DNA of 64,000 nucleotides. It comes from a virus (Duplodnaviria > Heunggongvirae > Uroviricota > Caudoviricetes). Every line of letters starts with the position of its first letter. The first letter of the stretch is position 1. The notes under the pieces are model-generated. The model made no database searches. It saw only the letters and a list, made by a program, of their open reading frames with translations, and was not told where the DNA came from. Location of the stretch: IMG/VR virus record IMGVR_UViG_3300021256_002164, positions 1 through 64,000 of that record; one strand, given 5' to 3'. Shown here in pieces: positions 1,805 to 57,953 of this stretch. A program made the translations under genes and the position numbers.

Positions 1805-2591
1805 ATTTATAGCGTAAATTAATTAGCTGTGTAATTTCTGCTGCTTGAACATGCAGTTTATTGAAATTAATATTCTCTTCTTGAATTATATGGTCATACT
1901 CTAGAACAATTACTGCTATCAATATATTATTCTTATCATATAATCCTTTGAATATAAGAGATTTTGTAGTATTTTTAACAATATAATAATAAAGAGATGG
2001 ATTTTTATTTCCAAATGTATCTAAATCATTATATAATATGCAATGATTACTTGAATTACGAACATCTTTAAATACTTGGGCTATCGCAGCAAATGCAACA
2101 TCATTCAATGAACCAAGGAATGGAACATAAGTAGGATATATCTTTCTATCATACCATTCATACTTACATGTAAACTTAACAAATGGTGTTCCACTTAAGT
2201 TTTCGTTATGGTTATGGAATTCAAGTATATATGTTCTTTGAGCATTATGAACTTCATTAATAACAGTTACATAGTCATTAATATCAACAGCTAAATCTTC
2301 CTTTTCTTCAACCATTTTATTATGGCGCACTTGCTCATTTTTCTTTTCATTAATAAAATATTGTAATAATTGTTTATCTTGTTCAATAATTGTAGCTGTT
2401 AATTGCTTATTTTGTTCAGATATTTGATATGTCAATTTCTCTCCAATACGTTCGAGGCCTGTAGACATATTATCTGTTAATTTCTGCCCATAATATTTAA
2501 TTATAAAAAATAGAATCATACCAATTAACACAACAAATACGCCAGTTAATCCGTAAGATTCAAATATTGTACCAAATGTTTCCACACGCAA
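1794..2591 (-). CDS. membrane-anchored hypothetical protein
   Basis: N-terminal hydrophobic helix (GVFVVLIGMILFFII) followed by a coiled-coil region; overlaps the downstream gene (ATGA-type overlap). Confidence 0.5.
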   Translation of the reverse strand: MRVETFGTIFESYGLTGVFVVLIGMILFFIIKYYGQKLTDNMSTGLERIGEKLTYQISEQNKQLTATIIEQDKQLLQYFINEKKNEQVRHNKMVEEKEDLAVDINDYVTVINEVHNAQRTYILEFHNHNENLSGTPFVKFTCKYEWYDRKIYPTYVPFLGSLNDVAFAAIAQVFKDVRNSSNHCILYNDLDTFGNKNPSLYYYIVKNTTKSLIFKGLYDKNNILIAVIVLEYDHIIQEENINFNKLHVQAAEITQLINLRYKYDE

Positions 2592-2787
2592 ATTCTTTAA
2601 TTAATATTTATAGTATTTTATTATATGAAATTAATCATAAATAGTTTCTATATTTATATATAATAATAATAATTCAAATGTCTAATTTTATTAATTTGTG
2701 ACCTCTTGAGTAAAAAATTAATATATGTCAATTTAACTTAAACCCTTTATATTACTATATTATATAATAAAAAATATCAATAAATTT

Positions 2788-3609
2788 ATGTTTGAAAAAG
2801 TAAATCCAAGTCATCCAGACAAAATTGCAGATAGAATTGCTGGAGCTATTGTAGATGTAGCATATAAGCAGTGTTCAAACCCTATAATTGCGGTAGAAGT
2901 ATTAATTGGCCATGGTGAATGTAATATTATAATTGAAAGCAATATAGATATTAATAATACAATAATTGAAAATATCGTATATAGGATTTGCGAAGATGAT
3001 ACTATAATTGTTGATATTCATAAAGTTCCACAAGATGAGCACCTAGCAGATAATCAAAATAATAGTCCAAAATGTGGAGATAATGGAATATTCAAAGGTA
3101 CTATTATAACTCGTGAGCAACAATTCTTAACTAATCTTGTTGGAAAAATTTATCAAACATATCCTTATGATGGTAAATATATAATTGATAATAGTAAGAT
3201 AATTGGTTGCCAATCACACATTAAAAATGATGAATTATATAATTACTTAAATTGTAATGGGTATAATCCTATAGTAAATCCTCTTGGCGAATGGACTGGC
3301 GGAATTAATGTTGATTGTGGAGCAACTAATCGTAAACTTGGATCAGATATGGGTGACTCAGTAACAGGAGGTGGTCTCCATGGTAAAGATTTATCTAAAG
3401 CAGATGTTTCAGTTAATATTTATTGTTTCTTAAAAGCACAAGGTAGTTTTGATAATTCAGATTGTCAATTAAGTTGTGCTATTGGTGATGAAACTATTGA
3501 TGGATTACCATATTCTGCAATTATGAATATTGCTTATGATTATATTAAGAGTATTGGTGGTTTTGAAAAGTTTGCTGAATGGGGATTAATACGTCCAAAT
3601 AATTATTAA
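2788..3609 (+). CDS. metK-like: truncated/minimal S-adenosylmethionine synthetase (MetK-like)
   Basis: N-terminus SHPDKIADRIAGAIVDV matches the MetK GHPDKIADQISDAVLDA motif. Also CGDNGIFKG ~ GAGDQGLMFG, GG..DCGATNRK ~ GGPMGDCGLTGRK, GGGLHGKDLSKADVS ~ GGGAFSGKDPSKVDRS. Only 273 aa versus about 384 for bacterial MetK. Confidence 0.65.
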   Translation: MFEKVNPSHPDKIADRIAGAIVDVAYKQCSNPIIAVEVLIGHGECNIIIESNIDINNTIIENIVYRICEDDTIIVDIHKVPQDEHLADNQNNSPKCGDNGIFKGTIITREQQFLTNLVGKIYQTYPYDGKYIIDNSKIIGCQSHIKNDELYNYLNCNGYNPIVNPLGEWTGGINVDCGATNRKLGSDMGDSVTGGGLHGKDLSKADVSVNIYCFLKAQGSFDNSDCQLSCAIGDETIDGLPYSAIMNIAYDYIKSIGGFEKFAEWGLIRPNNY

Positions 3610-3629
3610 TAAAATTTAAAATTATATAT

Positions 3630-4745
3630 ATGTTAAACGAAGAAAAAGTATATCAAATTTTAGAAAGGTGGAATGATGAAAGTGACCATTATCTTGGTTC
3701 ACTATTTGGAGCAATATATCATAAATGTCCTGAATGTTATTATTTTCAGTTTAATGATAATCAAGAAATATTTTATGATAAGTATATAAATAAACGAACA
3801 GTTAATAAGGTATCATTAGTTTCATCTCATTGCTTAGATGATAGAAATTTATTATTATCATTTATTAATAAGCCTGATGATTATATGATTATAAATTACT
3901 CACCTACAGAGTATTTAATTCTTGGAAAAAAACAAGATATATTATTGACAATTATTATTAATGATAGTGGAGATAAATCACTTTCTGTATATCAAACTGT
4001 TTATGTTGATAGAAATGTAGAACATAATTTTTTAGATGAATTAAAACCATTCTTTGAATATTCTCAAAGGCATATTGATATTGATTTTGGTATTGCTGCA
4101 GTAGATGCTAGTGGTAGTATATATACTAATTATTATGATTATTATACAGTAGATGTAGATATTAATAAAAATTATAATGATGATATTCCATATGATAAGA
4201 TGATTAATATTCTTAAAGATGATAGTAAGTCGTCATTAATGCTATTTTATGGTGATCCAGGAACCGGAAAATCTACAATAATAAAACATTTTATAGGAAG
4301 ATTACCTGCAAAAGAATTTGTTTTTGTTGATGGTGCACTCTTAGCAAATGTACAGCAAGATAGATTAATGTCTTATTTCTTAGAAAATCAAGATACAGTA
4401 TTTATTTTTGAAGATTGTGAAAAAATATTACTAAGTAGAGATCATAATTATAATCCAACAATGTCAATACTTCTTAATTTAACTGATGGTATTATTAGTG
4501 ATGTTTTGAATATTAAAATTATTTGTACATTTAATACTTCTTTGTCAAATATTGATAAGGCACTATTACGAAAGGGACGTTTGACAATGAAATATGAATT
4601 CAAAAAGTTAAATAAAGAAAAAGCACAGAAACTATTACCTAATGAAACAATTACGCAGGATATGTCTTTAGCAGATATTTATAATTATTATGAAGAAAAC
4701 GATTTTAGTAAGAAACAACAAAATAAAATAGGGTTCAGTGTTTAA
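3630..4745 (+). CDS. AAA+ ATPase with an N-terminal domain of unknown function
   Basis: Walker A GDPGTGKST, Walker B VFIFEDCE, sensor-1-like ICTFNT, Arg-finger region LLRKGRL. N-terminal ~200 aa unassigned (CPECYYF). Confidence 0.7.
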   Translation: MLNEEKVYQILERWNDESDHYLGSLFGAIYHKCPECYYFQFNDNQEIFYDKYINKRTVNKVSLVSSHCLDDRNLLLSFINKPDDYMIINYSPTEYLILGKKQDILLTIIINDSGDKSLSVYQTVYVDRNVEHNFLDELKPFFEYSQRHIDIDFGIAAVDASGSIYTNYYDYYTVDVDINKNYNDDIPYDKMINILKDDSKSSLMLFYGDPGTGKSTIIKHFIGRLPAKEFVFVDGALLANVQQDRLMSYFLENQDTVFIFEDCEKILLSRDHNYNPTMSILLNLTDGIISDVLNIKIICTFNTSLSNIDKALLRKGRLTMKYEFKKLNKEKAQKLLPNETITQDMSLADIYNYYEENDFSKKQQNKIGFSV

Positions 4746-4778
4746 ATTATTATAGTTGTTAAAAAATATATTTGTAGG

Positions 4779-4854
4779 GTTCTGGAACTTAATATGTGAA
4801 TACGCCATAGTAATATATAGAAGCAAAAACATATAATAAAGTTCCAGAACTTTT
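4779..4854. terminator. Long inverted repeat (gttctggaactt … aagttccagaac) followed by a T-run; bidirectional terminator-like
   Basis: 12-bp perfect arms enclosing a ~48-nt loop that contains the 20-mer taatatatagaagcaaaaac; TTTTATT follows. Lies between convergent genes. Confidence 0.45.
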
Positions 4855-4855
4855 A

Positions 4856-5086
4856 TTATATAAATTCATATTGTAAATTTTTCATATTACAACCAATAGT
4901 TAATTTTTTATGGTTTGATATATTCTTAGTGTCTAATATTATTTCATTATTACTTAAATATATATTATATACATATACTTTAACATCAAAATTTGGGAAG
5001 AATTCACAATCAGATATAAAATGAATTTTTCTATGATTAAACTGTTCACAAATATCTATATATGACAATTTTGATACTAATTTCAT
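4856..5086 (-). CDS. hypothetical small protein
   Basis: 76-aa ORF, AT-rich, no recognisable motifs. Confidence 0.3.
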   Translation of the reverse strand: MKLVSKLSYIDICEQFNHRKIHFISDCEFFPNFDVKVYVYNIYLSNNEIILDTKNISNHKKLTIGCNMKNLQYEFI

Positions 5087-5126
5087 TTATATAAGTTATT
5101 TTTATATATATTTAATAATATGTTTA

Positions 5127-5612
5127 ATGAAAGCATTCAATACATATATACAAGAAAAATTTATTCTAAATAAGAATACAAAAGTTCAAACATATATAAA
5201 GGATTGCAGTCAAGGTGATATTGTATATTTATTAAAACTCCATATTGATAGTGGATATATGAAAGAAGATACAGGTAAAGTTATAGAAAATACATGTAAA
5301 ACTATCAATAATGTATCTGTAAAAGATTCTATTAAATGTATAGTACAAATAAGTAAATATAAAAAAATGCAATATATATTTACAAATGGTATAAACTTTG
5401 ATGATAAATCATATATTGCTGTTCAAGAATGGAATGATATATTATATATTATTTCAAGAAATGAAGACTATATAAAAATTATTAAAGATAATACTGATAA
5501 AATATGTAAAGAACTTTGGAAAATAAATGATAATTTATATAATAAGGATGCAGATCAAAAAGAAAAAGATTTAGCATGTTTAAATTATTTTAAAACAAAC
5601 TTTAAATTATAA
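5127..5612 (+). CDS. hypothetical protein; N-terminal motif shared with the DUF285-repeat paralogs at 24–27 kb
   Basis: N-terminus MKAFNTYIQEKFILNKNTK resembles MKNLNQYIQEKFEINKNTK of the three DUF285 genes, but the repeat body is absent. Confidence 0.45.
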   Translation: MKAFNTYIQEKFILNKNTKVQTYIKDCSQGDIVYLLKLHIDSGYMKEDTGKVIENTCKTINNVSVKDSIKCIVQISKYKKMQYIFTNGINFDDKSYIAVQEWNDILYIISRNEDYIKIIKDNTDKICKELWKINDNLYNKDADQKEKDLACLNYFKTNFKL

Positions 5613-6204: not shown

Positions 6205-6858
6205 ATGCGAAAAATTTTATTAATTTTATGTTGTATATTATTTATAAGTAATATACATGGACAACAAATAGCACGTGCAGATGCTATTCTCTCTCTTGAA
6301 ACAATTCTTAATTCTTCTTGGCATAAATCAATGATAAATCCAGCAGAGGATGTGTATGATGATATATGGGATCATACTCATATTAATTGTTATTCAACAT
6401 TAAAAATGGAAAAGAATACATTAATTGATTTACAAGATTTTCATATGCCAATAAATAAAAATGAAATTGTAGTAACTTCTCAATATGGATATAGAAAACA
6501 ATTTAAAAGAAATCACTATGGAATTGACTTAAAAGTTCATACCGGAGATACTATATATTCAACATTTTCAGGAAAAATAAGAATTGTAAAATATGAGCCA
6601 AAAGGATATGGGAAAGTTATTGTTATACGGCATTTTAATGGCCTGGAAACAATTTACGGACATTTATCTAAACAATTAGTAAAAGAAAATGAATATGTTT
6701 ATGCAGGTCAACCTATTGGATTAGGTGGTTCTACAGGTCGTTCAACTGGCCAGCATCTTCATTTAGAAACTAAATATGGAAATGCTCATATTAATCCACA
6801 GAAGATATTTAATTTTAAATATCAAGATATCACAGATGATAAATATTTATATAAATAA
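6205..6858 (+). CDS. M23 family metallopeptidase (lysostaphin-like), secreted
   Basis: Signal peptide. M23 motifs HYGIDL (HxxxD) and GSTGRSTGQHLHLE (HxH). Candidate cell-wall hydrolase or lysin. Confidence 0.8.
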   Translation: MRKILLILCCILFISNIHGQQIARADAILSLETILNSSWHKSMINPAEDVYDDIWDHTHINCYSTLKMEKNTLIDLQDFHMPINKNEIVVTSQYGYRKQFKRNHYGIDLKVHTGDTIYSTFSGKIRIVKYEPKGYGKVIVIRHFNGLETIYGHLSKQLVKENEYVYAGQPIGLGGSTGRSTGQHLHLETKYGNAHINPQKIFNFKYQDITDDKYLYK

Positions 6859-6860
6859 AA

Positions 6861-6886
6861 ATTGGACTCTATAGAGTCCAATTTTT
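6861..6886. terminator. Bidirectional rho-independent terminator
   Basis: Hairpin ttggactc-tata-gagtccaa followed by TTTTTT, between convergent genes. Confidence 0.7.
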
Positions 6887-7359
6887 TAATTAAAGAATTT
6901 TTCAGTTATTATAATAAATTTCATATTATTCTTTTCTGCAAAAGCTTTAGCTGCATTCCATTTATCTACATTTATTACCCATTGTTCTTTTAACCATTCA
7001 GAATCTGCTGAACTTGGTTTAATTGTTTGATCATACGGTTTTATTTCTACTATTGTACGTTCTCCTTTATAATTTTCAATAATATAATCAGGATAATAAT
7101 GTGATTCTTTATCTTTCAATCTACTAAAATATGGTATAGATATTGGTTCTGATGCCCATTTAGTTATTTTTGGATTATTTTCACAAAACTGTATAAATTG
7201 TAATTCTAATCCAGAACGATATATAATGGGCTCATCTTTAACACTACCAAATAATTTTTTACATTGATTTATTGGTATATATCCTTGATGATACCTAGAT
7301 TTTTTACGAGGCTTAAGTTTTTTTATTTGATTATTCTCTAAAACTTTTGGATCTATCAT
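6886..7359 (-). CDS. hypothetical protein with a PD-(D/E)xK-like nuclease signature
   Basis: YYPDYIIENYKGERTIVEIKPY resembles a D…(E/D)xK restriction-endonuclease-fold core. Weak. Confidence 0.35.
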   Translation of the reverse strand: MIDPKVLENNQIKKLKPRKKSRYHQGYIPINQCKKLFGSVKDEPIIYRSGLELQFIQFCENNPKITKWASEPISIPYFSRLKDKESHYYPDYIIENYKGERTIVEIKPYDQTIKPSSADSEWLKEQWVINVDKWNAAKAFAEKNNMKFIIITEKFFN

Positions 7360-13988: not shown

Positions 13989-16328
13989 ATGATATTAGAT
14001 AGAACATGGAGTAAAAAAGAACAAAAATTAACAGTTTCTTATATTGATAAATTAGGTAATAGACAATTTTATCAAAAGTATTTACATCATATTAAAAGCT
14101 ATGAGTATAATCCTAATGGCGATTTAGAAACTTGGGATGAAAAGAAATGTAGTAAAATTTTTAAAGATACCACAGATTATACGCCAAATGAATTTGAAAT
14201 ATTAGAGTATTTATATGAATTGCCCGAAGATTTAAATAAGGCTATGCATGCTCAATATTTTCCAAAGGTATATTCATTTGATATTGAAACTGAAGTTAGT
14301 GATGAATTTCCTGATCCTGAAATTGCTGCTCAAAAAGTAACTGCGATATCATTAGTTGGTCCTGATTTATCATGTATTGTATATGGACTTCACCAATTGA
14401 ATGAAGCACAAATTGAATTATTTAGAAAGAGATATATAGATTGGCTTCATGCTAATGAATTTGCAACAGCATTAATTAATAAGAATAATTGGAAGCCTAA
14501 AGTATTATATCAATATTTTCCTACTGAAGAAGAAATGCTTGAGCATTTTTTCACAGTGATTATTCCAAAAATCAGTTGTTTATCTGGATGGAATAGTTAC
14601 GGATTCGATATGTTATATTTGACTCATCGAATTGAAAGATTATTTGGTAAGAAGATTGCTATGAATATGATTTATAAAGCATCTCCAACAGGTGAAATTA
14701 AAAAGTATTCATGGGAAGATATGAATGGTGATAAGAAATTTTTCTGGGGTCCTGCTCATTCAGTTATTATTGACTATATGCTGGTAGTAAAACAATATGA
14801 TTATACATTAAGACCTTATGAAAGCTATTCATTGGATTGGGTAGGAAGTCATGCTGTCAATGCTCATAAAATTAAATATGAAGGAACATTGCAGCAATTA
14901 TATGAAAGAGATCCTGAATGGTATTATTTCTATAATGCTGTTGATAGTTTGATTACTGAATTAATTCATTATAAGCTTAAGTCTCTTGAATCGCCTTGTG
15001 CAACATCAGCAGTAACATTAGTATCATTATTAAGTGCATTTGGACAAGTTGCATTAGGAACAGCAAATGTATTTGAAGAATTTTATGAGCAAAATAAGAA
15101 AGTAGTATGGGATTATGATGCTATTGAACGTACAAAAATTCCATATGAAGGTGCATTTTGTGGATGTGTTCCTGGTCGTTATGAATTTACAGTTTGTGAT
15201 GATTTTGCTTCACTTTATCCGTCTCAAGTTCGTACATGTAATATATCATTTGAAAATCTTATCCAAGCTAAAGATGGACCAGATAGTTTTGGAAGATATA
15301 TACCAAGAAATTGGACTCCTGAAGAACTAGAAGAATTCAAGAAAGACCCAAACTATTTTGTTACTGTTATGGGTAATGTATATAAGAATGATAAAGACTA
15401 TGCATTCAGACGTATTCAAGCAAAGTTAAAGAGAAATAGAGATAAATATAAATATACAGGACAACGTGTAGAATCAGAAGCATTAGTATATATTGATGAT
15501 ATACTTTCAGGAAAACAATCAAATATTGTATTTGATGATGATGTAAATAAGCTCTTAACTGAAAAGTTTGCATTCTTAGGTGAAAATCCTCAACAATATA
15601 TTAAGAATATGTCTAAGCAAGAATTAGAATTATTTAGAGTTGATGTTGAAGATTTACGACATGAACATTGGCTTCTTGAGAATGCTATGAAAACATCAGG
15701 TAATGGATTATATGGCTGTTGTGCAAATAGATTTTTCTATTTCTATAATATGGCTTTAGCAGGTGATATTACTGGTGAGTGCCGTAATCTTACAAAGACA
15801 ATGTGGAATAATCTTGAATATTTCTTCCATGAAACTTTATGGGAAAGAAAAGACTTATGGAAAGAATTTGACTTTGAACTTGATGAAAGTATGCATGATT
15901 GGTATAGAGAACAACCTATCTCTATATATTCCGATACTGATAGCTTGGCAAAAAAATCATTATTATTAATTAAAGATACTAAAAATATTAAAAATAAAAT
16001 AACTATTGAAGATTTATTTAATCAATCTTTAGATAAAAATGGTTTATCAGATATAACACAGAATAATCAAGAAATAGTTAAGTGTGATCAACAATGTTTA
16101 AATTGGACTAAGGAAAATGGATTACAATATGTACCTATTAAATATATTATGAGACATAAAGTATCTAAAGAACAATTTAAAATTAAAACAAAATCGGGTA
16201 AAGAAATTATAGTTACAGGAGATCATTCTTGTATAGTTTTTAGAAATGGAAAACAATTAACTATTAAAGCTAGAGATATAAATAAATCTACTGATAAGAT
16301 TTTATCAATAATTAATAATGAAGAATAA
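13989..16328 (+). CDS. family-B DNA polymerase, N-terminal cistron (exonuclease plus motifs A, B, C) ending in an N-terminal split-intein fragment
   Basis: Exo I FDIETE, Exo II YGFDMLYL, Exo III YYFYNAVD. Motif A DFASLYPS, motif B KTSGNGLYG, motif C YSDTD|S. After DTD comes a ~128-aa Hint N-terminal half (SLAKK…TGDHSCIVF = intein block B), then stop. Confidence 0.85.
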   Translation: MILDRTWSKKEQKLTVSYIDKLGNRQFYQKYLHHIKSYEYNPNGDLETWDEKKCSKIFKDTTDYTPNEFEILEYLYELPEDLNKAMHAQYFPKVYSFDIETEVSDEFPDPEIAAQKVTAISLVGPDLSCIVYGLHQLNEAQIELFRKRYIDWLHANEFATALINKNNWKPKVLYQYFPTEEEMLEHFFTVIIPKISCLSGWNSYGFDMLYLTHRIERLFGKKIAMNMIYKASPTGEIKKYSWEDMNGDKKFFWGPAHSVIIDYMLVVKQYDYTLRPYESYSLDWVGSHAVNAHKIKYEGTLQQLYERDPEWYYFYNAVDSLITELIHYKLKSLESPCATSAVTLVSLLSAFGQVALGTANVFEEFYEQNKKVVWDYDAIERTKIPYEGAFCGCVPGRYEFTVCDDFASLYPSQVRTCNISFENLIQAKDGPDSFGRYIPRNWTPEELEEFKKDPNYFVTVMGNVYKNDKDYAFRRIQAKLKRNRDKYKYTGQRVESEALVYIDDILSGKQSNIVFDDDVNKLLTEKFAFLGENPQQYIKNMSKQELELFRVDVEDLRHEHWLLENAMKTSGNGLYGCCANRFFYFYNMALAGDITGECRNLTKTMWNNLEYFFHETLWERKDLWKEFDFELDESMHDWYREQPISIYSDTDSLAKKSLLLIKDTKNIKNKITIEDLFNQSLDKNGLSDITQNNQEIVKCDQQCLNWTKENGLQYVPIKYIMRHKVSKEQFKIKTKSGKEIIVTGDHSCIVFRNGKQLTIKARDINKSTDKILSIINNEE
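15942..16325 (+). mobile_element. N-terminal intein fragment (IntN-like, ~128 aa) inserted at PolB motif C
   Basis: Begins with Ser directly after YSDTD; contains the block-B-like VTGDHSCIV; terminates at a stop codon with no endonuclease domain in frame. Confidence 0.65.
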
Positions 16329-17565
16329 CGAATTTTATCATACTAGTATAGACATTAAAGAATATCCCTTTGATATAATATCTTTAGAAGAAGTTAATCA
16401 AGAACTAATACAATTAGTTAAAAAATTTAATTCTTCTAAAGATATTAATGAGAAAAAAGAATTATCTAAACAAATACCTATTGAATTTCCTAAATGTCGA
16501 TTTTGCGGAAATATTATTATAAATTCAAATTTTTTAATAAATTTAAAACAAAAAAATAAAACAATACAATTAATATTACCATCAGTTTATTACCGTGAAA
16601 TAGATGGAAAAAAATATTATTTAAGTTGTTGTGAAAATTGTTTATTAGAACATTTTAAAGATAATCCGCCTAAAGCACCTAAATATTATTTTATGAAAGC
16701 AAATATTTATGGTCAATATTGTTTTGGATATTCTGATGAAGAATATAAAAAAATATGTTCAATGACAGTTGGTGTAACATATAATTCAATGATTAATAAA
16801 TGGGGTAAAGAATTAGGAGAGAAAAAATGGAAAGAATATCGTGATAAACATTCAAAAATAGCGTCTAAACAATATTTTATTGATAAATATGGTAAAGAAG
16901 AAGGATTAAAAATCTATCATGATTCGAGAGCAATAACTAAAAAGGGAATGATAAAGAAATATGGTAAAGAACTTGGTTTAGAAAAATGGAAAGAATATTG
17001 TGATAAACAAAAAATAACTAAATCATTTGATTATATGATTAATAAATTTGGATATGATAAAGCAATTCAAATTAATAAATCTAAAGCATTAACATTAGAT
17101 AATTTTATTAGAAAATATGGAGAAGAATTAGGCAATAAAAAATATATAGAATTTACAAAAAGGCATATTAATTTTTATTCTAATATTTCTCAAAAATTAT
17201 TTAATGAATTAGATAAATATTTATCAGAAAAATATACAACATATTATGCAACTAAAAATTATGAATATCCTATTAAATTATTAGATAAATATGTTTGTTT
17301 AGATTATTATATTAAAGAATTAAATATATGTATTGAATTTAATGGAAGTATATTTCATGGAGAACCTCGATTATATAAAGATAATGATAAATGTAATCCA
17401 TTTATTAATTTAACTGCTAAAGAAATTAGAGATAATGATCAAAAAAGATATAATTTACTAAAAGAATTATATAATATTAATACATATATTATTTGGGAAT
17501 TAGATTATAATAAAAATTTTAATATACAAGACTATATTATAAAAGTATTAAAAATTAATATATAA
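16318..17565 (+). mobile_element. free-standing homing-endonuclease-like gene inside the fractured polymerase
   Basis: Separate frame, overlaps the upstream stop by 11 nt. N-terminal Cys4 zinc ribbon (CRFCGN…CCENC). Four ~30-aa repeats (KYGKELGLEKWKEYCDKQ…). C-terminal Vsr/PD-(D/E)xK-like nuclease core LDYYIKELNICIEFNGSIFHGEP. Confidence 0.6.
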
Positions 17566-17570
17566 TAATT

Positions 17571-18539
17571 ATGTTAGAATATCAATTTGAAGAAATAGAA
17601 AGTATTGAACAACTAGACAATTTTAATGATGAATATGTTTATGATATAGAAGTAGATGATAATTCTCATACTTTTATAGCAAATGATATATTAGTTCATA
17701 ATTCGGTTTATACAACTTATGGTACATTATTCCGTTGTATGACACCAAAATATCAAGAAAAGTATAAAGATAAGAAAACAAAAGTAGATTGGATATTGAA
17801 TTTTAATAAGAAATTTGTAGATAAGCAAAATAACCAATGGTGTGAAGAAATGTATAATCCTCGTCATGGCAAGAATGTTCATGAGTTTGAATTAGAGACT
17901 GTTTCATATTCACAAATTTGCTTAAAGAAAAAGAAATATCTTAAAGGTTATGCGTTTGTTAAAGGTAAGTTTTACGATAAGCCAAAAGTAAGTGGAACAG
18001 GTATTGAACTTATTAAATCAACTACACCAGCATTATGTAGAGAGATTCTTTCAGACTTAATGAATAGTCTTATGTTTGAATATGATGAAGACCATAAGAA
18101 AGAATATATTCTTGAGTTTAATATGAAATTAGCTAATTATAGGAAACAATTCTATTCTGCTCCATTTGAAGATATATCTCAATCTATAGGTGTTGGTAAT
18201 TATAAAAAGTATGTTATTGATGACGAAGATGATTTACTATTAGGAAAACAATGTCCAGTATCAGTTCAAGCTATAGCACGATATAATTATTTAGCACATA
18301 AGAATGGACAAGATAATCTTAAGCAATATTCAGGTAAGATTAAATATTATAATGTTAAGATAGGTAATACAGATGGATATTTTGGTTTTCCTGCTGGCGA
18401 GCTTCCTGAATGGGCACCACCTATGAATAAAGAAATGCAATGGAGAAAAACAATTATAGACCCAATTAATCGTTTCTTGGAAGTTATGGAGATTCCATTG
18501 GTAAATGCTGGAACAGCTCAGCAATTAACATTATTTTAA
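17571..18539 (+). CDS. family-B DNA polymerase, C-terminal cistron beginning with a C-terminal split-intein fragment
   Basis: First 44 aa MLEYQ…VYDIEVDDNSHTFIANDILVHN are intein blocks F/G ending HN, then S+VYTTYG restores the motif-C context (YSDTD-SVY). Downstream KKKY (KKRY motif) and a thumb region. Confidence 0.85.
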   Translation: MLEYQFEEIESIEQLDNFNDEYVYDIEVDDNSHTFIANDILVHNSVYTTYGTLFRCMTPKYQEKYKDKKTKVDWILNFNKKFVDKQNNQWCEEMYNPRHGKNVHEFELETVSYSQICLKKKKYLKGYAFVKGKFYDKPKVSGTGIELIKSTTPALCREILSDLMNSLMFEYDEDHKKEYILEFNMKLANYRKQFYSAPFEDISQSIGVGNYKKYVIDDEDDLLLGKQCPVSVQAIARYNYLAHKNGQDNLKQYSGKIKYYNVKIGNTDGYFGFPAGELPEWAPPMNKEMQWRKTIIDPINRFLEVMEIPLVNAGTAQQLTLF

Positions 18540-18939: not shown

Positions 18940-19647
18940 ATGATAGATTGGAGTAAATATTTTGACCATATTTTTTGTATTCACTATTTAGCTAATGACC
19001 GAATTAATAGACATCATCAATTAATTAATGAATTATCCAGAGTTGGAATATATCAATCTGGAATTTTTTCATTTATATATGATGAAGATTCGGTAATTAC
19101 TAATGATATAATGGAAAATGCAAGAAATAAATATTTTATTGGATTAGATAAATATGGGAAACGAGTAACAATAAATCATTATAAAGCATTTAATATTGCA
19201 AAGATATGTGGATATAAGAATATATTAGTGCTTGAAGATGATGTATGTTTTTTGAAAGACTTAGATGAATTAGAAAAATATATTCAAGAAACAAGTGTAT
19301 TGAATACTGATTTAATTATGTATGATTATATTACTTATAAGAATATATATACAAATACTGAATTAAATTGCTTTGCTACTTGTTATCAATTAAAGAATGA
19401 CGGTATTGATAAGATGATTAAGAATCTTGAACATATTCATATGTATATTATTGACTTATATTTTTCTACTACTAATCATTATAATTTCTATGCTAAAGAT
19501 TATGAACAACCGATAGTATATCCTCATGTCTTAAGTATTAGTAAATGTCCTAAACGATTAGCATTACAAAGAAATAACCCAGCATATAAGAATTGTCATA
19601 TAGATATAAATTATGATGAATATGAAAATTTTTTTGATAAAAACTAA
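18940..19647 (+). CDS. glycosyltransferase family 25-like protein (LPS/LOS-type)
   Basis: MIDWSKYFDHIF… and ILVLEDDVCFLKD (LEDD motif), as in GT25 enzymes; paralog of 36963..37646. Confidence 0.55.
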   Translation: MIDWSKYFDHIFCIHYLANDRINRHHQLINELSRVGIYQSGIFSFIYDEDSVITNDIMENARNKYFIGLDKYGKRVTINHYKAFNIAKICGYKNILVLEDDVCFLKDLDELEKYIQETSVLNTDLIMYDYITYKNIYTNTELNCFATCYQLKNDGIDKMIKNLEHIHMYIIDLYFSTTNHYNFYAKDYEQPIVYPHVLSISKCPKRLALQRNNPAYKNCHIDINYDEYENFFDKN

Positions 19648-19762: not shown

Positions 19763-21709
19763 ATGAGCAACAAAGTTTTTGGTATCGATTTGGGTACCGG
19801 TAATTCATGTGTAGCTGTTATTGAAAATGGAAAGGCTACAGTTATTGCAAATGCTGAAGGTAATCGTACAACTCCTTCAGTAGTTTTTATTAAGGGTGAT
19901 GAACGTAAAGTTGGAGGTTCAGCTAAACGTGGTATGATTATGAACCCTAAGAATACAGTATCTTTCATTAAGCGTTTTATGGGTGCTGAATGGCAAGATG
20001 CAGATGTACAAAAGATGTTGACTATGGTAACTTATGAAGTAGTTAACAAAAATAATAAGCCGTATATTAAGATTGATGGTAAAGAATATTCTGCTGAGGA
20101 AATCTCTTCATATATTCTTGCTGACCTCGCAAAGGTTGCATCAGAATATTATGGTGAAGATGTAAAGAAGGTTGTTATTACTGTTCCTGCATGGTTCAAT
20201 GATGTTCAACGTAAGGCAACACAACTTGCTGGCGAACTTGCTGGACTTGAAGTTCTCCGTATTATCAATGAGCCTACCGCAGCTATTCTTGCAGCTGGTA
20301 TGGATAAAGAAGATAAGGAACGTCTTGTACTTGTAAATGACCTTGGTTGTGGTACTGAAGATGTATCTATTTGCGAAGTTTCACAAGGAATCGTTGAAGT
20401 TCTTGCATCTGATGGTGATGTATTCCTTGGCGGTCAAAACTATGATAATGAAATTGTAAATTGGTTGGCCGATGAATTTATGAAGGACCATGCTGGTGTT
20501 GATTTACGAAAGGATCCTATGGCATATGCACGTTTGGTTGAAGCTGCAGAAAAAGCAAAATGTGAATTGTCAACCGCAACACAAGCTGAAATCAATCTTC
20601 CTTATATTACTGTTATTGATAGTGTTCCTCAAATGTTGGTAACCACATTGACTCGTGCTAAATTTGAATCACTTACAAAGCAATATACAGATAAGGTAAT
20701 TGAAATTGCAAAACGTGCTCTTGAAAAGGCAGGTAAGACTTCTGCAGATATTACAGATATTCTTCTTGTTGGTGGTTCTTCACGTATGCCACAAGTACAA
20801 GAAGCACTTAAGAATGCATTTGGTGATAAACTTAATAAGCAATCTAATTTTGATGAAGCAGTTGCACTTGGTGCAGCAACTCAAGCTAAAGCAATTGCAA
20901 ATCCTGAAGAAGGTGATACATTGCTTCTTGATGTAACTCCTATTTCACTTGGTATTGAAGTTAATGGCAATATGTTTGGTAAGCTTGTAGATGCTAATAC
21001 AACTATTCCATGTAAGAAATCACAAATCTTTACAACAGCGGTAGATAATCAACCTGCAGTATCAATCGTAGTTCTTCAAGGTGAACGTCCTATGAGTAAG
21101 GATAATAAGCAAATTGGTATATTCAACCTTGATGGTATTGCTCCTGCCCCTCGTGGAATTCCTCAAATTGAAGTAACATTTGATATTGATGCTAATGGTA
21201 CTTTGACAGTAACTGCTGTTGATAAGGGTACTAATAAGGAACAGCATATTACTATTTCAGATTCTAATACTCTATCACAAGATGAAATTGATAGAATTAA
21301 GAAGGAAGCTGAAGAACATAAAGCTGAAGATGATAAGAAGAAAGCTGAGTTTGAAAAGAAGAATGAAGCTGAAGGATATATCTATTCAGTTGAAAAATCT
21401 TTGAATGATGAACAATTTAAAGATAAGTTTACTGAAGATGAAAAGAAGCAACTTGAAGACCTTGTAAAGGAAGCTAAGGAAGCAATCGATTCTAAAGATG
21501 ATGAAAAGATGTTTTCTAAGAAAGAAGAACTTGAAAAGGTATATGCTCCTATCATTACACGTATCTATCAAGAATCAATGCCTAAGGACCAACAAGGTAA
21601 TCCCCAAGTAGATCCTAATATGTTCAAAAATATGTTTGGTAGTGGTAATTTTGCTACAGGTGCAGATTTTGATCCATCAAAGTTTACACAAGCAAAACCG
21701 AATAATTAA
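19763..21709 (+). CDS. dnaK: Hsp70/DnaK-family chaperone (divergent)
   Basis: IDLGTGNS (cf. IDLGTTNS), [10 protein letters not shown] (cf. DLGGGTFDVS), VGGSSRMP (cf. VGGSTRIP), [14 protein letters not shown], charged C-terminal lid. GC content higher than flanks. Confidence 0.85.
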
Positions 21710-21771
21710 TATATAAAACTCTCAATGGGATTCTCATTTGAGAGTCCCTATATAAATATATTCAAAAATAA

Positions 21772-22215
21772 TTGGAGGTAATTATTATGACAAACGCTTT
21801 AGATTTTTTCAATTTTGGTAAATCGTCTATTTTCGACAATTGGTTCGACAATTTTGGTATGATTCCAACAAACTTTACCAATTCCCCAAAGGTTAATGTA
21901 AAGGAAACTGATAAAGCTTATGAAATAGAAATTGCCAATCCTGGTTTCTCTAAAGATGAAACAAAAATTGAGGTTAAGAATGGTATTATTACTGTTTCAA
22001 TGACTTCTGAAAGTAAAGAAGGTGAAGGAACAGAAGATAAGTATCATGTTAAACAATGGAGTAAATCATCTTATGAGGAATCTTGGAATCTTCCAGAAAA
22101 TGTAATTGATGACCAAATCTCAGCAAAGAATGTTGATGGGGTTCTTACAATTACATTACCTAAACGAGAGGAAGATACTAAGAAAGAAGAACCAAGGACC
22201 ATTACTATTGAATGA
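21772..22215 (+). CDS. small heat-shock protein (Hsp20/α-crystallin family)
   Basis: α-Crystallin domain ending …AKNVDGVLTITLPK. A GGAGGT ribosome-binding site precedes the ATG. Confidence 0.8.
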   Translation: MEVIIMTNALDFFNFGKSSIFDNWFDNFGMIPTNFTNSPKVNVKETDKAYEIEIANPGFSKDETKIEVKNGIITVSMTSESKEGEGTEDKYHVKQWSKSSYEESWNLPENVIDDQISAKNVDGVLTITLPKREEDTKKEEPRTITIE

Positions 22216-22218
22216 TAT

Positions 22219-22262
22219 TTATTTTGGGTGGGACTTAAAAATCTCACCCAAATTTTTCTATT
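22219..22262 (+). terminator. Rho-independent terminator after the sHsp gene
   Basis: tttgggtg…cacccaaa hairpin followed by a TTTTTCTATTTT run. Confidence 0.6.
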
Positions 22263-22290
22263 TTATTATATTAAATATATTTGAAGTATT

Positions 22291-22926
22291 ATGACAGAAT
22301 TAAGCTTAATTGCACAAAATTATTTAACAGATAAAGGTTGTACATATTTTAATTCTCATTGTTATACTGAAATTTATAATTCTTATTTTCAAAAACTTAA
22401 GAATAAAAATAGAAAAGTATATATTTTAGAAATTGGAGTACAAGCAGGATATGATTTATTAATGATGAATGATTATTTTGAAGGCAATTGTGAAATATAT
22501 GGTTTTGATATTAATATAAATACTTTAGAAGTTGAATTACCTGATAATATTCATATATTTGAATTAAATGCTGCAAGTATACCAGAGTTAAATAAATTTT
22601 ATTCAAACTTAATACATTGGTCAGTAAATAAAATGCCTCAATTTGATATTATTATTGATGACGGTTCCCATGAGTCACAAGATATATTAACATCTTTATA
22701 TTTTTTCTATCTTATGTTATCTTATGATGGTATATATATTATAGAAGATTTACATGCAGAATCAGCAAAAGAAGCATTAAATTATTTAACATTTAATGAG
22801 TCAAATAATATTAATATGGATGATGTAACAAAAAATATACAAAGTAAAACTATACATTATATTTGTAATTCCTATTGTATAGACTATGATAGTTCTATAT
22901 GTGCAGTTTTAACATTTAAAAAATAA
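22291..22926 (+). CDS. class I SAM-dependent methyltransferase
   Basis: Motif I-like VYILEIGVQAG and motif IV-like IIIDDGSH (TylF/FkbM-like O-MTase architecture). Confidence 0.55.
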   Translation: MTELSLIAQNYLTDKGCTYFNSHCYTEIYNSYFQKLKNKNRKVYILEIGVQAGYDLLMMNDYFEGNCEIYGFDININTLEVELPDNIHIFELNAASIPELNKFYSNLIHWSVNKMPQFDIIIDDGSHESQDILTSLYFFYLMLSYDGIYIIEDLHAESAKEALNYLTFNESNNINMDDVTKNIQSKTIHYICNSYCIDYDSSICAVLTFKK

Positions 22927-22929
22927 GTT

Positions 22930-24018
22930 ATGGCAAATAATAAAGATTTATACGAAATATTAGGTTTATCACGTAATGCATCTGATAATGATATTAAGAA
23001 AGCATATAAGAAGCTTGCTTTAAAATATCATCCTGATCGTCAAGGTGGAAAATCAGATAAAGAAAAGAAAGAAGCTGAAGAAAAATTTAAGGAAGTATCA
23101 TGGGCTTATGATATATTAAGCAATCCTGAAAAGAAACAGCGATATGATCAGTTTGGTATTACTGATGACCAGCAACAAATGAGTGGCGGATTTGATCCTT
23201 CAGAAATATTCAAACATTTTATGGGAGGATTTGATAGTATGTTTGATGATGACGATTCTCCTTTTGGAACATTTTTTAATAGAAGAAGTTCTCGTCAACC
23301 CAGAGGACCTCAGCCAGGACAGTCAATAAGAATGCAAATTCCAGTTAGTATAGAAGAAATCTGTAATGGTGTTCATAGAGATATTGAATATAATATACAA
23401 GCAAAATGCTCAAGTTGTCATGGAACTGGTGGTGATGGAGTTGAAACTTGTCAATATTGTCATGGAACTGGTATGATTACAGAAACTCAACGAATGGGAT
23501 TTAGTATTATTCAAAATTCTCATCCATGTCATTATTGTGGAGGAACTGGTAAAACTATTAAATATAAATGTTCAAAATGTAATGGTACTGGATTTGAAAC
23601 TAAAACAGTTAAAGTACATGTTGATATTAATCCTGGATTTGAAAATGGATATCAACAAATGTTTAATGGAAAGGGATATGAATCTAAAGATGGTGGGCAA
23701 AATGGTGATTTACTATTAGATTTTATTTATCAATATGATACTTCTAAATATTCAATTCAAGGAAATAATATATATGAAATAATTGAAATTCCATATTATG
23801 ATTGTATACTTGGTTGTAAAAATAAAGAAGTAACATTACCAAATAATGATAAAATAAAAATCAATATTCCAGAATATTCAAAAGATAATACATTAGTTCA
23901 AACAAATAAGAGATTTGGAAGAATGGGATATATATATGTTATAAAAGTAAAAATGCCAACATATATAAGAGATAAAGAAAAAGAACTATTAGAGAAAATT
24001 AAAAAGGAGAACCATTAA
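22930..24018 (+). CDS. dnaJ: DnaJ (Hsp40) co-chaperone
   Basis: J-domain DLYEILGLSRNASDNDIKKAYKKLALKYHPDRQ; four CxxCxGxG zinc-finger repeats (CSSCHGTG, CQYCHGTG, CHYCGGTG, CSKCNGTG); C-terminal β domains. Confidence 0.85.
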   Translation: MANNKDLYEILGLSRNASDNDIKKAYKKLALKYHPDRQGGKSDKEKKEAEEKFKEVSWAYDILSNPEKKQRYDQFGITDDQQQMSGGFDPSEIFKHFMGGFDSMFDDDDSPFGTFFNRRSSRQPRGPQPGQSIRMQIPVSIEEICNGVHRDIEYNIQAKCSSCHGTGGDGVETCQYCHGTGMITETQRMGFSIIQNSHPCHYCGGTGKTIKYKCSKCNGTGFETKTVKVHVDINPGFENGYQQMFNGKGYESKDGGQNGDLLLDFIYQYDTSKYSIQGNNIYEIIEIPYYDCILGCKNKEVTLPNNDKIKINIPEYSKDNTLVQTNKRFGRMGYIYVIKVKMPTYIRDKEKELLEKIKKENH

Positions 24019-24043
24019 GATTCTCCTTTATTTTTTTAATCAA
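23998..24043. terminator. Bidirectional terminator hairpin
   Basis: aggagaa…tctcct hairpin followed by TTTATTTTTTT, between convergent dnaJ and the first DUF285 gene. Confidence 0.6.
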
Positions 24044-57850: not shown

Positions 57851-57879
57851 AATTTTTTATATACAAATTTAATGATTTT

Positions 57880-57898
57880 CTTATATATAAAAATAAAA
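57880..57898 (-). promoter_or_regulatory. candidate late-promoter motif (cttatatataaaaataaaa) ~30 nt upstream of the 2873-aa gene
   Basis: Near-identical element at 63301..63319 with the same spacing to the 1772-aa gene start; variants at 45304..45328, 49163..49185 and 10283..10300. Confidence 0.3.
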
Positions 57899-57935
57899 TA
57901 GGCCATTTTAAAAATGACCTATTCTTAAAAGTTTT
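57895..57935 (-). terminator. Rho-independent terminator downstream of the 1772-aa gene
   Basis: Near-palindrome aataggccattttt/aaaaatgacctatt; T-rich on the minus strand. Confidence 0.5.
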
Positions 57936-57953
57936 ATAAAGTAATATTTTCTA

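What the first reader, a model, noticed from the sequence alone, without database searches (positions are those of the whole stretch)
2788..4745. Minimal MetK-like SAM synthetase paired with an AAA+ ATPase
A 273-aa protein keeps the hallmark MetK motifs (HPDKIAD, GDxG.xFG, DCG.T.RK, GGG..GKD.SK.D.S) but lacks >100 residues of the canonical enzyme. It is tightly coupled to a P-loop AAA+ ATPase with an unassigned N-terminal domain. A phage-borne truncated MetK could boost SAM supply for phage methyltransferases (there is an MTase at 22291..22926), or act as a dominant-negative or decoy against host SAM-dependent defences such as BREX or Type I/III R-M. The pairing with an ATPase is not a known arrangement.
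Basis: partly seen in the sequence, partly recalled or inferred. Interest (0 to 1): 0.6.

Follow-up and report, generated by a model that had tools for sequence, protein, structure and literature searches.

The report
Compact phage SAM synthetase beside AAA ATPase
A jumbo phage carries a trimmed but apparently complete copy of the enzyme that makes the methyl donor SAM, a gene already common in phages; it sits next to a core AAA ATPase gene because it was inserted there, not because the two form a system.

Summary
ORF 2788-3609 (273 aa) is a compact MetK/methionine adenosyltransferase. ORF 3630-4745 (371 aa), 20 nt downstream, is a classical AAA ATPase.

The short MetK keeps the whole three-repeat MAT fold (pLDDT 87.5; TM 0.65-0.75 to solved MATs). 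It has all 16 E. coli MetK catalytic and ligand residues I mapped, all invariant in its family. The 111 missing residues are spread over seven segments; no lobe is lost.

It is not new. It belongs to phrog_1569, a very large phage and prophage family already annotated as a SAM-synthetase auxiliary gene and already noted as truncated. Its usual neighbour is a ParB-fused DNA methyltransferase.

The AAA ATPase is a core jumbo-phage gene, Bcs1/YjoB-like, with a lineage-restricted N-domain. It occurs without MetK in all 9 homologue loci found by searching with the ATPase itself.

Within one jumbo-phage subclade, MetK sits in a variable slot just upstream of the ATPase. That slot is empty, holds MetK alone, holds an FkbM methyltransferase plus MetK, or holds MetK plus another ORF.

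Best reading: an active SAM synthetase that supplies phage SAM-dependent enzymes, probably co-transcribed with an unrelated chaperone-like ATPase. The decoy idea is disfavoured. Interest is low to moderate.

The parts
2788..3609 (+). Compact MetK / methionine adenosyltransferase (273 aa), a member of the phage short-MetK family phrog_1569
   Evidence: phrog_1569 2.2e-61 over residues 1-269. Pfam S-AdoMet_synt_N 4e-8. AlphaFold model pLDDT 87.5, pTM 0.89, with three beta-alpha-beta-beta-alpha-beta repeats. Foldseek hits only MATs, E 2e-17, query TM 0.65-0.75. 16 of 16 E. coli MetK active-site residues are present and invariant in alignment A1.
3630..4745 (+). Classical-clade AAA ATPase (371 aa), Bcs1/YjoB-like: a lineage-specific N-terminal alpha/beta domain (about residues 1-190) plus one AAA module (about 195-350) and a conserved C-terminal tail EENDxSKK..KIGF
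2592..2787 (.). Divergent intergenic region between the 265-aa minus-strand ORF (1794-2591) and MetK. This is the upstream end of the variable slot into which MetK is inserted in this phage subclade
   Evidence: Across relatives with the same backbone the slot is empty (L316), holds MetK alone (window, L315, L172), holds an FkbM methyltransferase plus MetK (L171, L314), or holds MetK plus a 237-aa ORF (L167). The sigma-70-type scan gave no more promoter-like sites than shuffled sequence.
3610..3629 (+). 20-nt spacer between MetK and the ATPase; no terminator-like site found, so co-transcription is likely
   Evidence: Sequence read directly. 0 terminator-like sites in 2400-5300.
4779..4850 (.). 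Inverted repeat (15-nt arms, 93% complementary, 42 nt apart) between the convergent ATPase gene and the 76-aa minus-strand ORF (4856-5086); possibly the end of the transcription unit
   Evidence: It was not scored as a canonical intrinsic terminator.
22291..22926 (+). TylF/MycF-like class I methyltransferase (211 aa). It is the only candidate SAM-consuming enzyme found in the window, 18.7 kb away, inside a DnaK-Hsp20-DnaJ cluster
   Evidence: phrog_21658 'methyltransferase' 8.9e-19. PDB 8ia9 demethylmacrocin O-methyltransferase 5.1e-8 and 3ssm 1.2e-6. No Pfam hit.

Best explanation
ORF 2788-3609 encodes an active, minimised methionine adenosyltransferase. It condenses ATP and methionine into S-adenosylmethionine with the same chemistry as cellular MetK, but on a scaffold trimmed to about 270 residues.

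It belongs to a very large family specific to phages and prophages. That family's usual genomic partner is a phage DNA methyltransferase, most often a ParB-N6/N4 methyltransferase fusion. Its inferred role is to keep SAM available during infection for phage-encoded SAM-dependent enzymes. In most phages that means self-methylation of phage DNA against restriction. In this jumbo-phage clade the likely consumers are FkbM- or TylF-type methyltransferases and radical-SAM enzymes.

In this lineage the gene was acquired once (inferred from one neighbour-joining tree). It lies in a variable slot at the 5' side of a core gene, the AAA ATPase at 3630-4745.

That ATPase is a separate entity. It is a Bcs1/YjoB-like classical AAA protein with a lineage-restricted N-domain, conserved across jumbo phages. 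It is most plausibly a protein-remodelling or assembly chaperone, alongside the phage's own DnaK, DnaJ and Hsp20 and, in relatives, a ClpX-like gene.

The two genes are probably co-transcribed but are not a functional pair.

Shown: homology, fold, residue conservation and gene-neighbourhood statistics. Inferred: enzymatic activity, dimeric state, the SAM-supply role and the chaperone role of the ATPase.
For: MetK identity and likely competence:
- Fold search returns only MATs, aligned along most of the query (aligned columns 297-364, query TM 0.65-0.75). The model is confident.
- E. coli residues H14, D16, K17, E42, E55, Q98, D118, D163, K165, F230, D238, R244, K245, K265, K269 and D271 map to H9, D11, K12, E37, E50, Q82, D98, D128, K130, W169, D176, R182, K183, K200, K204 and D206.
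- Spacing is identical between H14-E42, E42-E55 and K265-D271. Every one of these columns is invariant in 38 family members of 62-80% identity.

Family size and prior annotation:
- GenBank Gardnerella phage vB_Gva_AB1 annotates it as a SAM synthetase next to a DNA modification methylase.
- PMC11283538 and PMC8223999.

Methyltransferase linkage:
- ParB_N+N6_N4_Mtase is the downstream neighbour in 31 of 65 loci, and a methyltransferase is the upstream neighbour in 11 of 64.
- A ParB-methyltransferase homologue lies within 4 kb in 57 of 80 prophage loci.
- An FkbM methyltransferase lies directly upstream of MetK in L314 and L171. A radical-SAM gene lies two genes upstream in L005.

Independence of the ATPase:
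- Full-length homologues occur without MetK in L085-L090 and L175-L177.
- L316 has the same backbone with an empty slot.
- In L085, L087, L088 and L090 a 348-350-aa minus-strand gene that clusters with the RecA gene of L173 abuts the ATPase. In L173 MetK sits between that RecA gene and the ATPase.
- Homologous AAA modules occur in PA5oct/MIJ3 and other jumbo phages with no SAM synthetase annotated within 4 kb in MIJ3.
- Jumbo-phage MetKs form one clade in which ATPase-adjacent and non-adjacent members are mixed.
Against: - I found no published enzymology for the short form in six literature searches, so activity is inferred only.
- The protein fails the curated NCBIfam metK equivalog threshold (43.8 against 309.4 bits). 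It gives no Pfam hit to the central or C-terminal MAT domains.
- The triphosphate-binding loop (residues 184-197) is modelled with low confidence.
- MAT active sites form across a dimer interface, and I did not model the oligomer.
- In this window no methyltransferase is adjacent; the nearest methyltransferase-like ORF is 18.7 kb away.
- Direct MetK-ATPase adjacency, with gaps of 1-20 nt, is kept in at least six sampled lineages in which the ATPase has diverged to 50-66% identity: window, L171, L172, L173, L314 and L315. In L173 the upstream flank differs. This is more persistent than a random juxtaposition and leaves some room for functional coupling.
Confidence: 0.7

Rival explanations
1. 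MetK and the AAA ATPase form a functional two-gene unit in this jumbo-phage subclade. For example, the ATPase might assemble or activate the minimal MetK. Or it might remodel or disassemble host MetK or a SAM-dependent defence complex while the phage enzyme takes over SAM synthesis.
For: The two genes share a strand, have a 20-nt spacer and no terminator-like site between them. Direct adjacency is retained in the window, L171, L172, L173, L314 and L315, although the ATPase has diverged to 50-66% identity and the upstream flank differs in L173.
Against: The ATPase occurs without MetK in 9 of 9 loci found by searching with the ATPase, and in L316 with an identical backbone. MetK occurs without the ATPase in 160 of 160 viral and bacterial loci outside the clade, and in L165 and L005 inside it. 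An unrelated ORF is inserted between the two genes in L167. The ATPase module is widespread in jumbo phages, and the one neighbourhood inspected (MIJ3) has no SAM synthetase annotated within 4 kb.
Confidence: 0.08
2. The short MetK is a non-catalytic decoy or dominant-negative subunit. It would bind host MetK, or a SAM-sensing defence system, and block it, by analogy with the way T3 SAM lyase polymerises with host MetK.
For: More than 100 residues are trimmed. By my own recollection of MAT structures, not tested here, the trimmed segments include some that contribute to the tetramer interface of cellular MATs. The curated metK equivalog threshold is failed. T3 SAM lyase does bind MetK (PDB 8bb1 appears among the fold hits; bioRxiv 10.1101/2023.02.27.530186).
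Against: All 16 catalytic and ligand-binding residues are invariant across the family, which a decoy would not need. The gene's dominant neighbour is a SAM-consuming DNA methyltransferase, which argues for making SAM rather than removing it. Identity to cellular MetKs is only about 20%, which makes hetero-oligomers with diverse hosts unlikely.
Confidence: 0.06
3. The enzyme is catalytically active but has a shifted chemistry or purpose. It might make a SAM analogue for DNA or sugar modification, or act mainly as a tripolyphosphatase. Or it might replenish SAM after a host response depletes it, rather than feeding phage methyltransferases.
For: The gating-loop region (residues 82-97) and the segments around the substrate pocket are shortened relative to E. 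coli. The aromatic residue that stacks on adenine is Trp instead of Phe. Partners in the jumbo clade are not DNA methyltransferases but FkbM- or TylF-type methyltransferases and a radical-SAM enzyme. The S. agalactiae prophage copy affects aggregation and biofilm phenotypes of the lysogen (PMC8223999).
Against: The residues that bind methionine in E. coli MetK (E55, Q98, D238, K269) are all conserved. Nothing in the sequence points to another substrate.
Confidence: 0.1

Closest known systems
Short prophage/phage MetK (phrog_1569; KEGG K00789 'auxiliary metabolic gene' of Ca. Heliusvirales, Streptococcus Javan-type prophages and 12/111phiA, Gardnerella phage vB_Gva_AB1 ORF19)
   Same: 57-61% identical along the full length (one partial match at 55%). 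Same 260-275-aa size, same invariant motifs and same C-terminal GGFEKFAEWGL motif. The truncation relative to E. coli MetK has already been described (PMC8223999).
   Different: Here it sits in an AT-rich jumbo myovirus of about 203 kb, not a 40-65-kb temperate siphovirus-like phage. It forms a separate jumbo-phage clade. It lacks the usual flanks of small terminase subunit upstream and ParB-methyltransferase downstream, and is followed by an AAA ATPase.
Cellular MetK / MAT (E. coli MetK, PDB 1fug, 7ll3; U. urealyticum MAT 6rk7)
   Same: Same three-repeat fold (TM 0.65-0.75) and the same 16 active-site residues.
   Different: 111 residues shorter, with deletions of 6, 11, 4, 15, 27, 3 and 45 residues between conserved anchors. 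About 20% identity. Fails the TIGR01034 equivalog cut-off, and the Pfam central and C-terminal domain models do not fire. Oligomeric state unknown.
Phi1207.3 orf29-type phage MetK (353 aa)
   Same: A phage-borne SAM synthetase placed near ParB-methyltransferase and C5-methyltransferase genes, and proposed to be the methyl-donor supplier (PMC4260502).
   Different: That protein is near full length, with all three Pfam MAT domains at strong E-values. The window's protein is about 80 residues shorter and more divergent.
Bcs1 (mitochondrial AAA translocase) and B. subtilis YjoB
   Same: Best structural matches for the 371-aa ATPase. Shared architecture of an N-terminal alpha/beta domain plus a single classical AAA module. 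Relative to the Rpt3 alignment there is a 3-residue gap where I expect the canonical pore-loop-1 motif (position assigned from my own knowledge).
Jumbo-phage ATPase of the PA5oct/MIJ3 group (MIJ3_00217, 'putative AAA+ ATPase and BCS1 domain protein')
   Same: AAA module 37% identical over residues 180-370. It is a conserved gene of large myoviruses.
   Different: The Pseudomonas-phage protein is 475 aa, and its N-terminal part does not match the window's N-domain in tblastn. No SAM synthetase is annotated within 4 kb.
T3 SAM lyase (SAMase)
   Same: A phage protein that acts on the host SAM pool in the context of restriction and BREX.
   Different: The opposite strategy: it destroys SAM and inhibits host MetK. 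No sequence or fold relationship.

Membership tests
MetK / methionine adenosyltransferase (EC 2.5.1.6) | Pfam S-AdoMet_synt_N at or above the gathering score | tested here: met
   34.1 bits against a cut-off of 33.1, E 4e-8, residues 3-65; a marginal pass.
MetK / methionine adenosyltransferase (EC 2.5.1.6) | Pfam central and C-terminal MAT domain models, and the NCBIfam TIGR01034 equivalog cut-off | tested here: not met
   No hit to either domain model at E 0.1 or below. TIGR01034 scored 43.8 bits against a cut-off of 309.4.
MetK / methionine adenosyltransferase (EC 2.5.1.6) | Three-repeat beta-alpha-beta-beta-alpha-beta MAT fold | tested here: met
   Model pLDDT 87.5. The secondary-structure order shows three repeats. 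Foldseek probability 1.00, query TM 0.65-0.75, and all top 50 hits are MATs.
MetK / methionine adenosyltransferase (EC 2.5.1.6) | Catalytic and ligand residues: His14, Asp16, Lys17, Glu42, Glu55, Gln98, Asp118, Asp163, Lys165, Phe230, Asp238, Arg244, Lys245, Lys265, Lys269, Asp271 (E. coli mature numbering) | tested here: met
   16 of 16 are present (Phe230 is Trp169). All are invariant columns of alignment A1. The choice of residues and their roles come from my own knowledge of E. coli MetK. The E. coli sequence was checked against PDB 7ll3.
MetK / methionine adenosyltransferase (EC 2.5.1.6) | SAM synthesis from ATP and L-methionine; active site formed across a homodimer interface | not testable with these tools
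   Needs an enzyme assay and an oligomer structure.
Short phage MetK family (phrog_1569) | Full-length match to the family profile; 260-275 aa; family-specific invariant motifs | tested here: met
   phrog_1569 2.2e-61 over residues 1-269. 57-80% identity to family members. 88 invariant columns shared.
Short phage MetK family (phrog_1569) | Usual context: adjacent DNA methyltransferase (ParB-N6/N4 methyltransferase) and small terminase subunit | tested here: not met
   In the window the neighbours are a 265-aa unknown ORF on the minus strand and the AAA ATPase. This context is typical of the family, not defining.
Classical AAA ATPases (PF00004) | Walker A, Walker B, sensor-1 and second region of homology with arginine fingers | tested here: met
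   PF00004 47.6 bits against a cut-off of 21.2. GxPGTGKS, FIxEDCE, CTFN and LLRKGR are invariant in alignment A2.
Bcs1 / YjoB-type AAA proteins | Bcs1-specific N-terminal/middle domain and membrane anchor; heptameric ring | tested here: inconclusive
   Adjacent only within one jumbo-phage subclade. Absent in 160 of 160 MetK loci outside that subclade, and in 9 of 9 loci found by searching with the ATPase. The slot is empty in L316. An ORF is inserted between the genes in L167.
Known anti-phage defence or anti-defence systems (PADLOC-DB) | Match to a defence-system protein model | tested here: not met
   MetK: no hit. ATPase: only generic AAA-level hits, mad8 2.1e-7 and TRIP13 0.0065.

The most novel reading that the evidence does not exclude
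In this jumbo-phage subclade, the retained head-to-tail MetK-to-ATPase arrangement may reflect a real functional link. A Bcs1-like ATPase without the canonical pore loop could handle folded oligomers. It might assemble the minimal MetK, or dismantle host MetK or a SAM-dependent restriction or BREX complex, while the phage enzyme supplies SAM. Together that would be a two-part takeover of the host methyl-donor economy. Separately, the short MetK family could be the smallest natural MAT, a dimer-only enzyme freed from host regulation.
Probability: 0.07. Interest if true: 0.65.

Novelty: new member of a known kind. Interest (0 to 1): 0.25.

Why it matters
The practical result is a correction: this locus does not need to be followed up as a new MetK-ATPase system.

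Two points are still worth keeping.

First, the short phage MetK is extremely common: more than 8000 clusters at 90% identity, about 59% of Ca. Heliusvirales genomes, and at least 510 loci in the species-representative bacterial and archaeal genome set. I found no enzymology for it in the searchable literature. It retains every catalytic residue in about 70% of the usual chain length, so it is a natural minimal MAT. That could interest enzymologists and people who make SAM analogues. It also bears on how phages keep their methyltransferases supplied.

Second, the Bcs1-like AAA ATPase is a conserved jumbo-phage gene whose function was not established by any library or annotation searched here. 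It lies among phage-encoded chaperones and is a reasonable target in its own right.

Tried and rejected
- Defence or anti-defence assignment: PADLOC gave nothing for MetK and only generic AAA hits for the ATPase.
- Assigning the ATPase N-domain:
  - Pfam, PHROGs and NCBIfam gave no model for residues 1-190.
  - An exhaustive phmmer search of 1.84 billion representatives found only 17 clusters, full-length N-domain-plus-AAA proteins or shorter proteins, so there are no informative fusions.
- Promoter and terminator scan of 2400-5300: promoter-like sites were fewer than in shuffled sequence and no terminators were found, so it is uninformative in this 25% GC DNA.
- Literature: six searches for a biochemical study of a phage or short MetK found only genome-annotation-level mentions and one genetic study.
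- I first read the window as crAss-like because of its giant ORFs. I rejected that: it has a T4-type Gp23 capsid protein, prohead protease and tail sheath, so it is a jumbo myovirus.
- Coincident 'longest contig' sizes in the two homologue lists suggested universal adjacency. Locus look-ups showed that some of these are only the same contig (L165) or chance (P0109, which is ParB-methyltransferase plus MetK).
- I looked for the FkbM methyltransferase seen next to MetK in relatives; it is not in the window.
Full report
**Setting.** The window is 25% GC. It matches exactly part of a 203-kb metagenomic scaffold (ENA ERZ28612970 scaffold_67). It encodes a T4-type Gp23 major capsid protein, a prohead protease, a tail sheath, a family-B DNA polymerase, a helicase, a sigma factor, DnaK, DnaJ and Hsp20. 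It is therefore part of a jumbo myovirus genome. The host is unknown.

**Observation.** ORFs 2788-3609 (273 aa) and 3630-4745 (371 aa) are on the + strand, 20 nt apart.
- The first ORF carries HPDKIAD (residues 9-15), GDNGIFKG (97-104), DCGATNRK (176-183) and GGGLHGKDLSKADVS (194-208).
- It hits Pfam S-AdoMet_synt_N at 4e-8, just above the gathering score, and TIGR01034 metK at 1.5e-11, far below the equivalog cut-off.
- It matches PDB MetK chains in two stretches and phrog_1569 at 2.2e-61 over its whole length.
- The second ORF is a classical AAA ATPase: PF00004 2.9e-12, with Walker A, Walker B, sensor-1 and arginine fingers invariant in its family. No library model covers its N-terminal 190 residues.

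**What the MetK-like protein is.**
- An AlphaFold model built on 38 homologues is confident (pLDDT 87.5, pTM 0.89). It shows three beta-alpha-beta-beta-alpha-beta repeats.
- Foldseek against the PDB returns only methionine adenosyltransferases. E-values go down to 2e-17, the probability is 1.00, and the query-normalised TM-score is 0.65-0.75. No lobe is missing.
- I took the E. coli sequence from memory and verified it as identical to PDB 7ll3. I then anchored the conserved motifs.
- The 16 residues I know as the catalytic and ligand-binding set of E. coli MetK are His14, Asp16, Lys17, Glu42, Glu55, Gln98, Asp118, Asp163, Lys165, Phe230, Asp238, Arg244, Lys245, Lys265, Lys269 and Asp271.
- In the phage protein they correspond to H9, D11, K12, E37, E50, Q82, D98, D128, K130, W169, D176, R182, K183, K200, K204 and D206.
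- All 16 are invariant columns in the family alignment.
- The spacing between H14-E42, E42-E55 and K265-D271 is unchanged.
- The 111 missing residues are distributed as deletions of 6 (N-terminus), 11, 4, 15, 27, 3 and 45 residues between these anchors.

This is the pattern expected of a working enzyme trimmed at its periphery. It is not the pattern of a pseudo-enzyme.

**How common and how well known it is.**
- IMG/VR holds at least 593 loci. The species-representative bacterial and archaeal genome set holds at least 510, overwhelmingly Bacillota and hence prophages.
- GenBank phages with the gene include Streptococcus Javan prophages, Gardnerella phage vB_Gva_AB1 and Ca. Heliusvirales phages. 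In the Gardnerella phage it is annotated as a SAM synthetase and followed by a DNA modification methylase.
- The Heliusvirales paper reports SAM synthetase K00789 in 58.9% of genomes, next to a cytosine-5 methyltransferase in 67% (PMC11283538).
[quoted passage not shown] It also links the gene genetically to aggregation and glycocalyx phenotypes (PMC8223999).
- The Phi1207.3 paper proposed that a longer phage MetK serves as the methyl-donor supplier for phage methylases (PMC4260502).
- I found no enzymology of the short form.

**Usual partner.**
- In 65 IMG/VR loci the immediate downstream gene is a ParB_N-N6_N4_Mtase fusion in 31.
- The immediate upstream gene is a methyltransferase in 11 of 64 and a small terminase subunit in 33 of 64.
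- In 80 bacterial-genome loci, 57 carry a ParB-methyltransferase homologue within 4 kb.
- None of these 160 loci carries the AAA ATPase.

**What the ATPase is.**
- By sequence it is about equally distant from Rpt3, VAT, p97 and Bcs1. The alignment to Rpt3 has a 3-residue gap where I expect the canonical pore-loop-1 motif from my own knowledge.
- The N-domain is restricted to 17 clusters at 50% identity among 1.84 billion representatives, as full-length N-domain-plus-AAA proteins or shorter proteins.
- The AAA module is 34-44% identical to ATPases of many jumbo phages: the PA5oct/MIJ3 group (annotated 'AAA+ ATPase and BCS1 domain protein'), XacN1, Xoo-sp13, GAP32, fHe-Yen9 and a 735-kb megaphage. 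No SAM synthetase is annotated within 4 kb in MIJ3.
- It is therefore a core jumbo-phage gene, plausibly a protein-remodelling factor. Its actual substrate is unknown.

**Is the pairing meaningful?**
- Starting from the ATPase, 9 full-length homologues with enough upstream sequence carry no MetK: L085-L090 from IMG/VR and L175-L177 from metagenomes.
- In L085, L087, L088 and L090 a 348-350-aa minus-strand gene that clusters with the RecA gene of L173 abuts the ATPase. In L173 MetK sits exactly between that RecA gene and the ATPase.
- Within the window's own subclade the backbone is o247(-), o265(-), a slot, the ATPase(+), then the 76-aa ORF(-), which is the immediate downstream gene in the window and L167.
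  - The slot holds MetK alone in the window, L315 and L172.
  - It holds an FkbM-type methyltransferase plus MetK in L171 and L314.
  - It holds MetK plus an unrelated 237-aa ORF in L167.
  - It is empty in L316.
- In L165 and L005 MetK lies elsewhere, away from the ATPase. In L005 a radical-SAM gene lies two genes upstream of it.
- A neighbour-joining tree puts all jumbo-phage MetKs in one clade, separate from the Bacillota-prophage clade. ATPase-adjacent and non-adjacent members are interspersed within it.

The simplest history is one acquisition into a variable slot at the head of the ATPase gene, followed by local gains, losses and moves. Even here, the gene that travels with MetK is a methyltransferase.

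**Mechanism proposed.** The short MetK makes SAM during infection, so that phage SAM-dependent enzymes are not limited by the host pool. In most phages of the family the consumer is a DNA methyltransferase that protects phage DNA from restriction. In this clade the candidates are FkbM- or TylF-type methyltransferases and radical-SAM enzymes. The window's only methyltransferase-like ORF is 22291-22926, which is TylF/MycF-like and sits 18.7 kb away. The ATPase is probably co-transcribed with MetK (20-nt spacer, no terminator-like site) but acts independently. The enzymatic activity, the dimeric state and the physiological role are inferences.

**Rivals.**
- A true MetK-ATPase functional unit is not excluded. 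Adjacency persists in at least six sampled lineages in which the ATPase has diverged to 50-66% identity. But the presence/absence data above argue against it (confidence about 0.08).
- A decoy or dominant-negative role conflicts with invariant catalytic residues and with the methyltransferase linkage (about 0.06).
- An altered chemistry or another use of SAM remains possible (about 0.1).

**Verdict.** The 'SAM supply' interpretation is the supported one. The 'new arrangement with an ATPase' is lineage-specific synteny. The item is a new member of a known kind. Its residual interest is that this very common minimal MAT appears never to have been characterised biochemically.

Noticed in passing
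window 19763-24018 (+): A phage-encoded chaperone cluster: DnaK/Hsp70 (PF00012 4.9e-213), Hsp20, a TylF/MycF-like methyltransferase and a full three-domain DnaJ. Together with the Bcs1-like ATPase, and a ClpX-like gene in relatives (L167), this phage group carries an unusually rich proteostasis set.
   Followed up: partly
window 13989-18539 (+): The family-B DNA polymerase appears split over consecutive ORFs (779, 415 and 322 aa), with intein-splicing-domain hits at 17571-18539. This may be a polymerase gene interrupted by an intein or a homing element.
   Followed up: no
window 27752-31726 (-): The window contains a collagen-triple-helix-repeat protein (Pfam 1.2e-64). I attribute it, without confirming which ORF gave the hit, to the 1324-aa ORF here, which coincides with a local jump in GC from about 0.22 to 0.37-0.43.
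   Followed up: no
window 24036-25196 (-) and one further ORF not identified: DUF285 (Mycoplasma-type) repeat proteins and a BspA-type leucine-rich-repeat protein. This may hint at a low-GC Bacillota or Mycoplasmatota host.
   Followed up: no
window 6205-7359: An M23 peptidase with a signal peptide (6205-6858, +) lies next to a TnsA-like endonuclease (6886-7359, -). A lipoprotein-like SPFH/Band-7 protein is at 165-983.
   Followed up: no
window 4779-4850: A 15-nt inverted repeat (93% complementary, 42-nt loop) lies between the convergent ATPase gene and the 76-aa ORF. It does not fit the canonical terminator pattern. The 76-aa ORF itself is syntenic with the ATPase in L085 and L087-L090 as well.
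   Followed up: partly
L167 8824-9537; window 36963-37646 and 18940-19647: The 237-aa ORF inserted between MetK and the ATPase in a relative has paralogue-like copies elsewhere in the window (39% and 24% identity). This looks like a multicopy, possibly mobile, gene family with no Pfam match for the L167 copy or the 18940 copy.
   Followed up: partly
L171 9410-10123; L171, L172, L315, L316 downstream of the ATPase: Relatives carry an IS605 OrfB/TnpB (Cas12f1-like) gene, a Macro-domain protein, a nucleoside 2-deoxyribosyltransferase and a PspC-domain protein downstream of the ATPase. L314 also carries an SmpB homologue.
   Followed up: no
window 49229-63272 (-): Two giant ORFs of 2873 and 1772 aa lie back to back. 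Their function was not examined.
   Followed up: no
L165 12346-12564 and 14293-15018: A relative jumbo phage (contigs up to 354 kb) encodes an eIF-1a/IF1-like protein and a protein with a Tad3 Pfam hit a few kb from its MetK.
   Followed up: no
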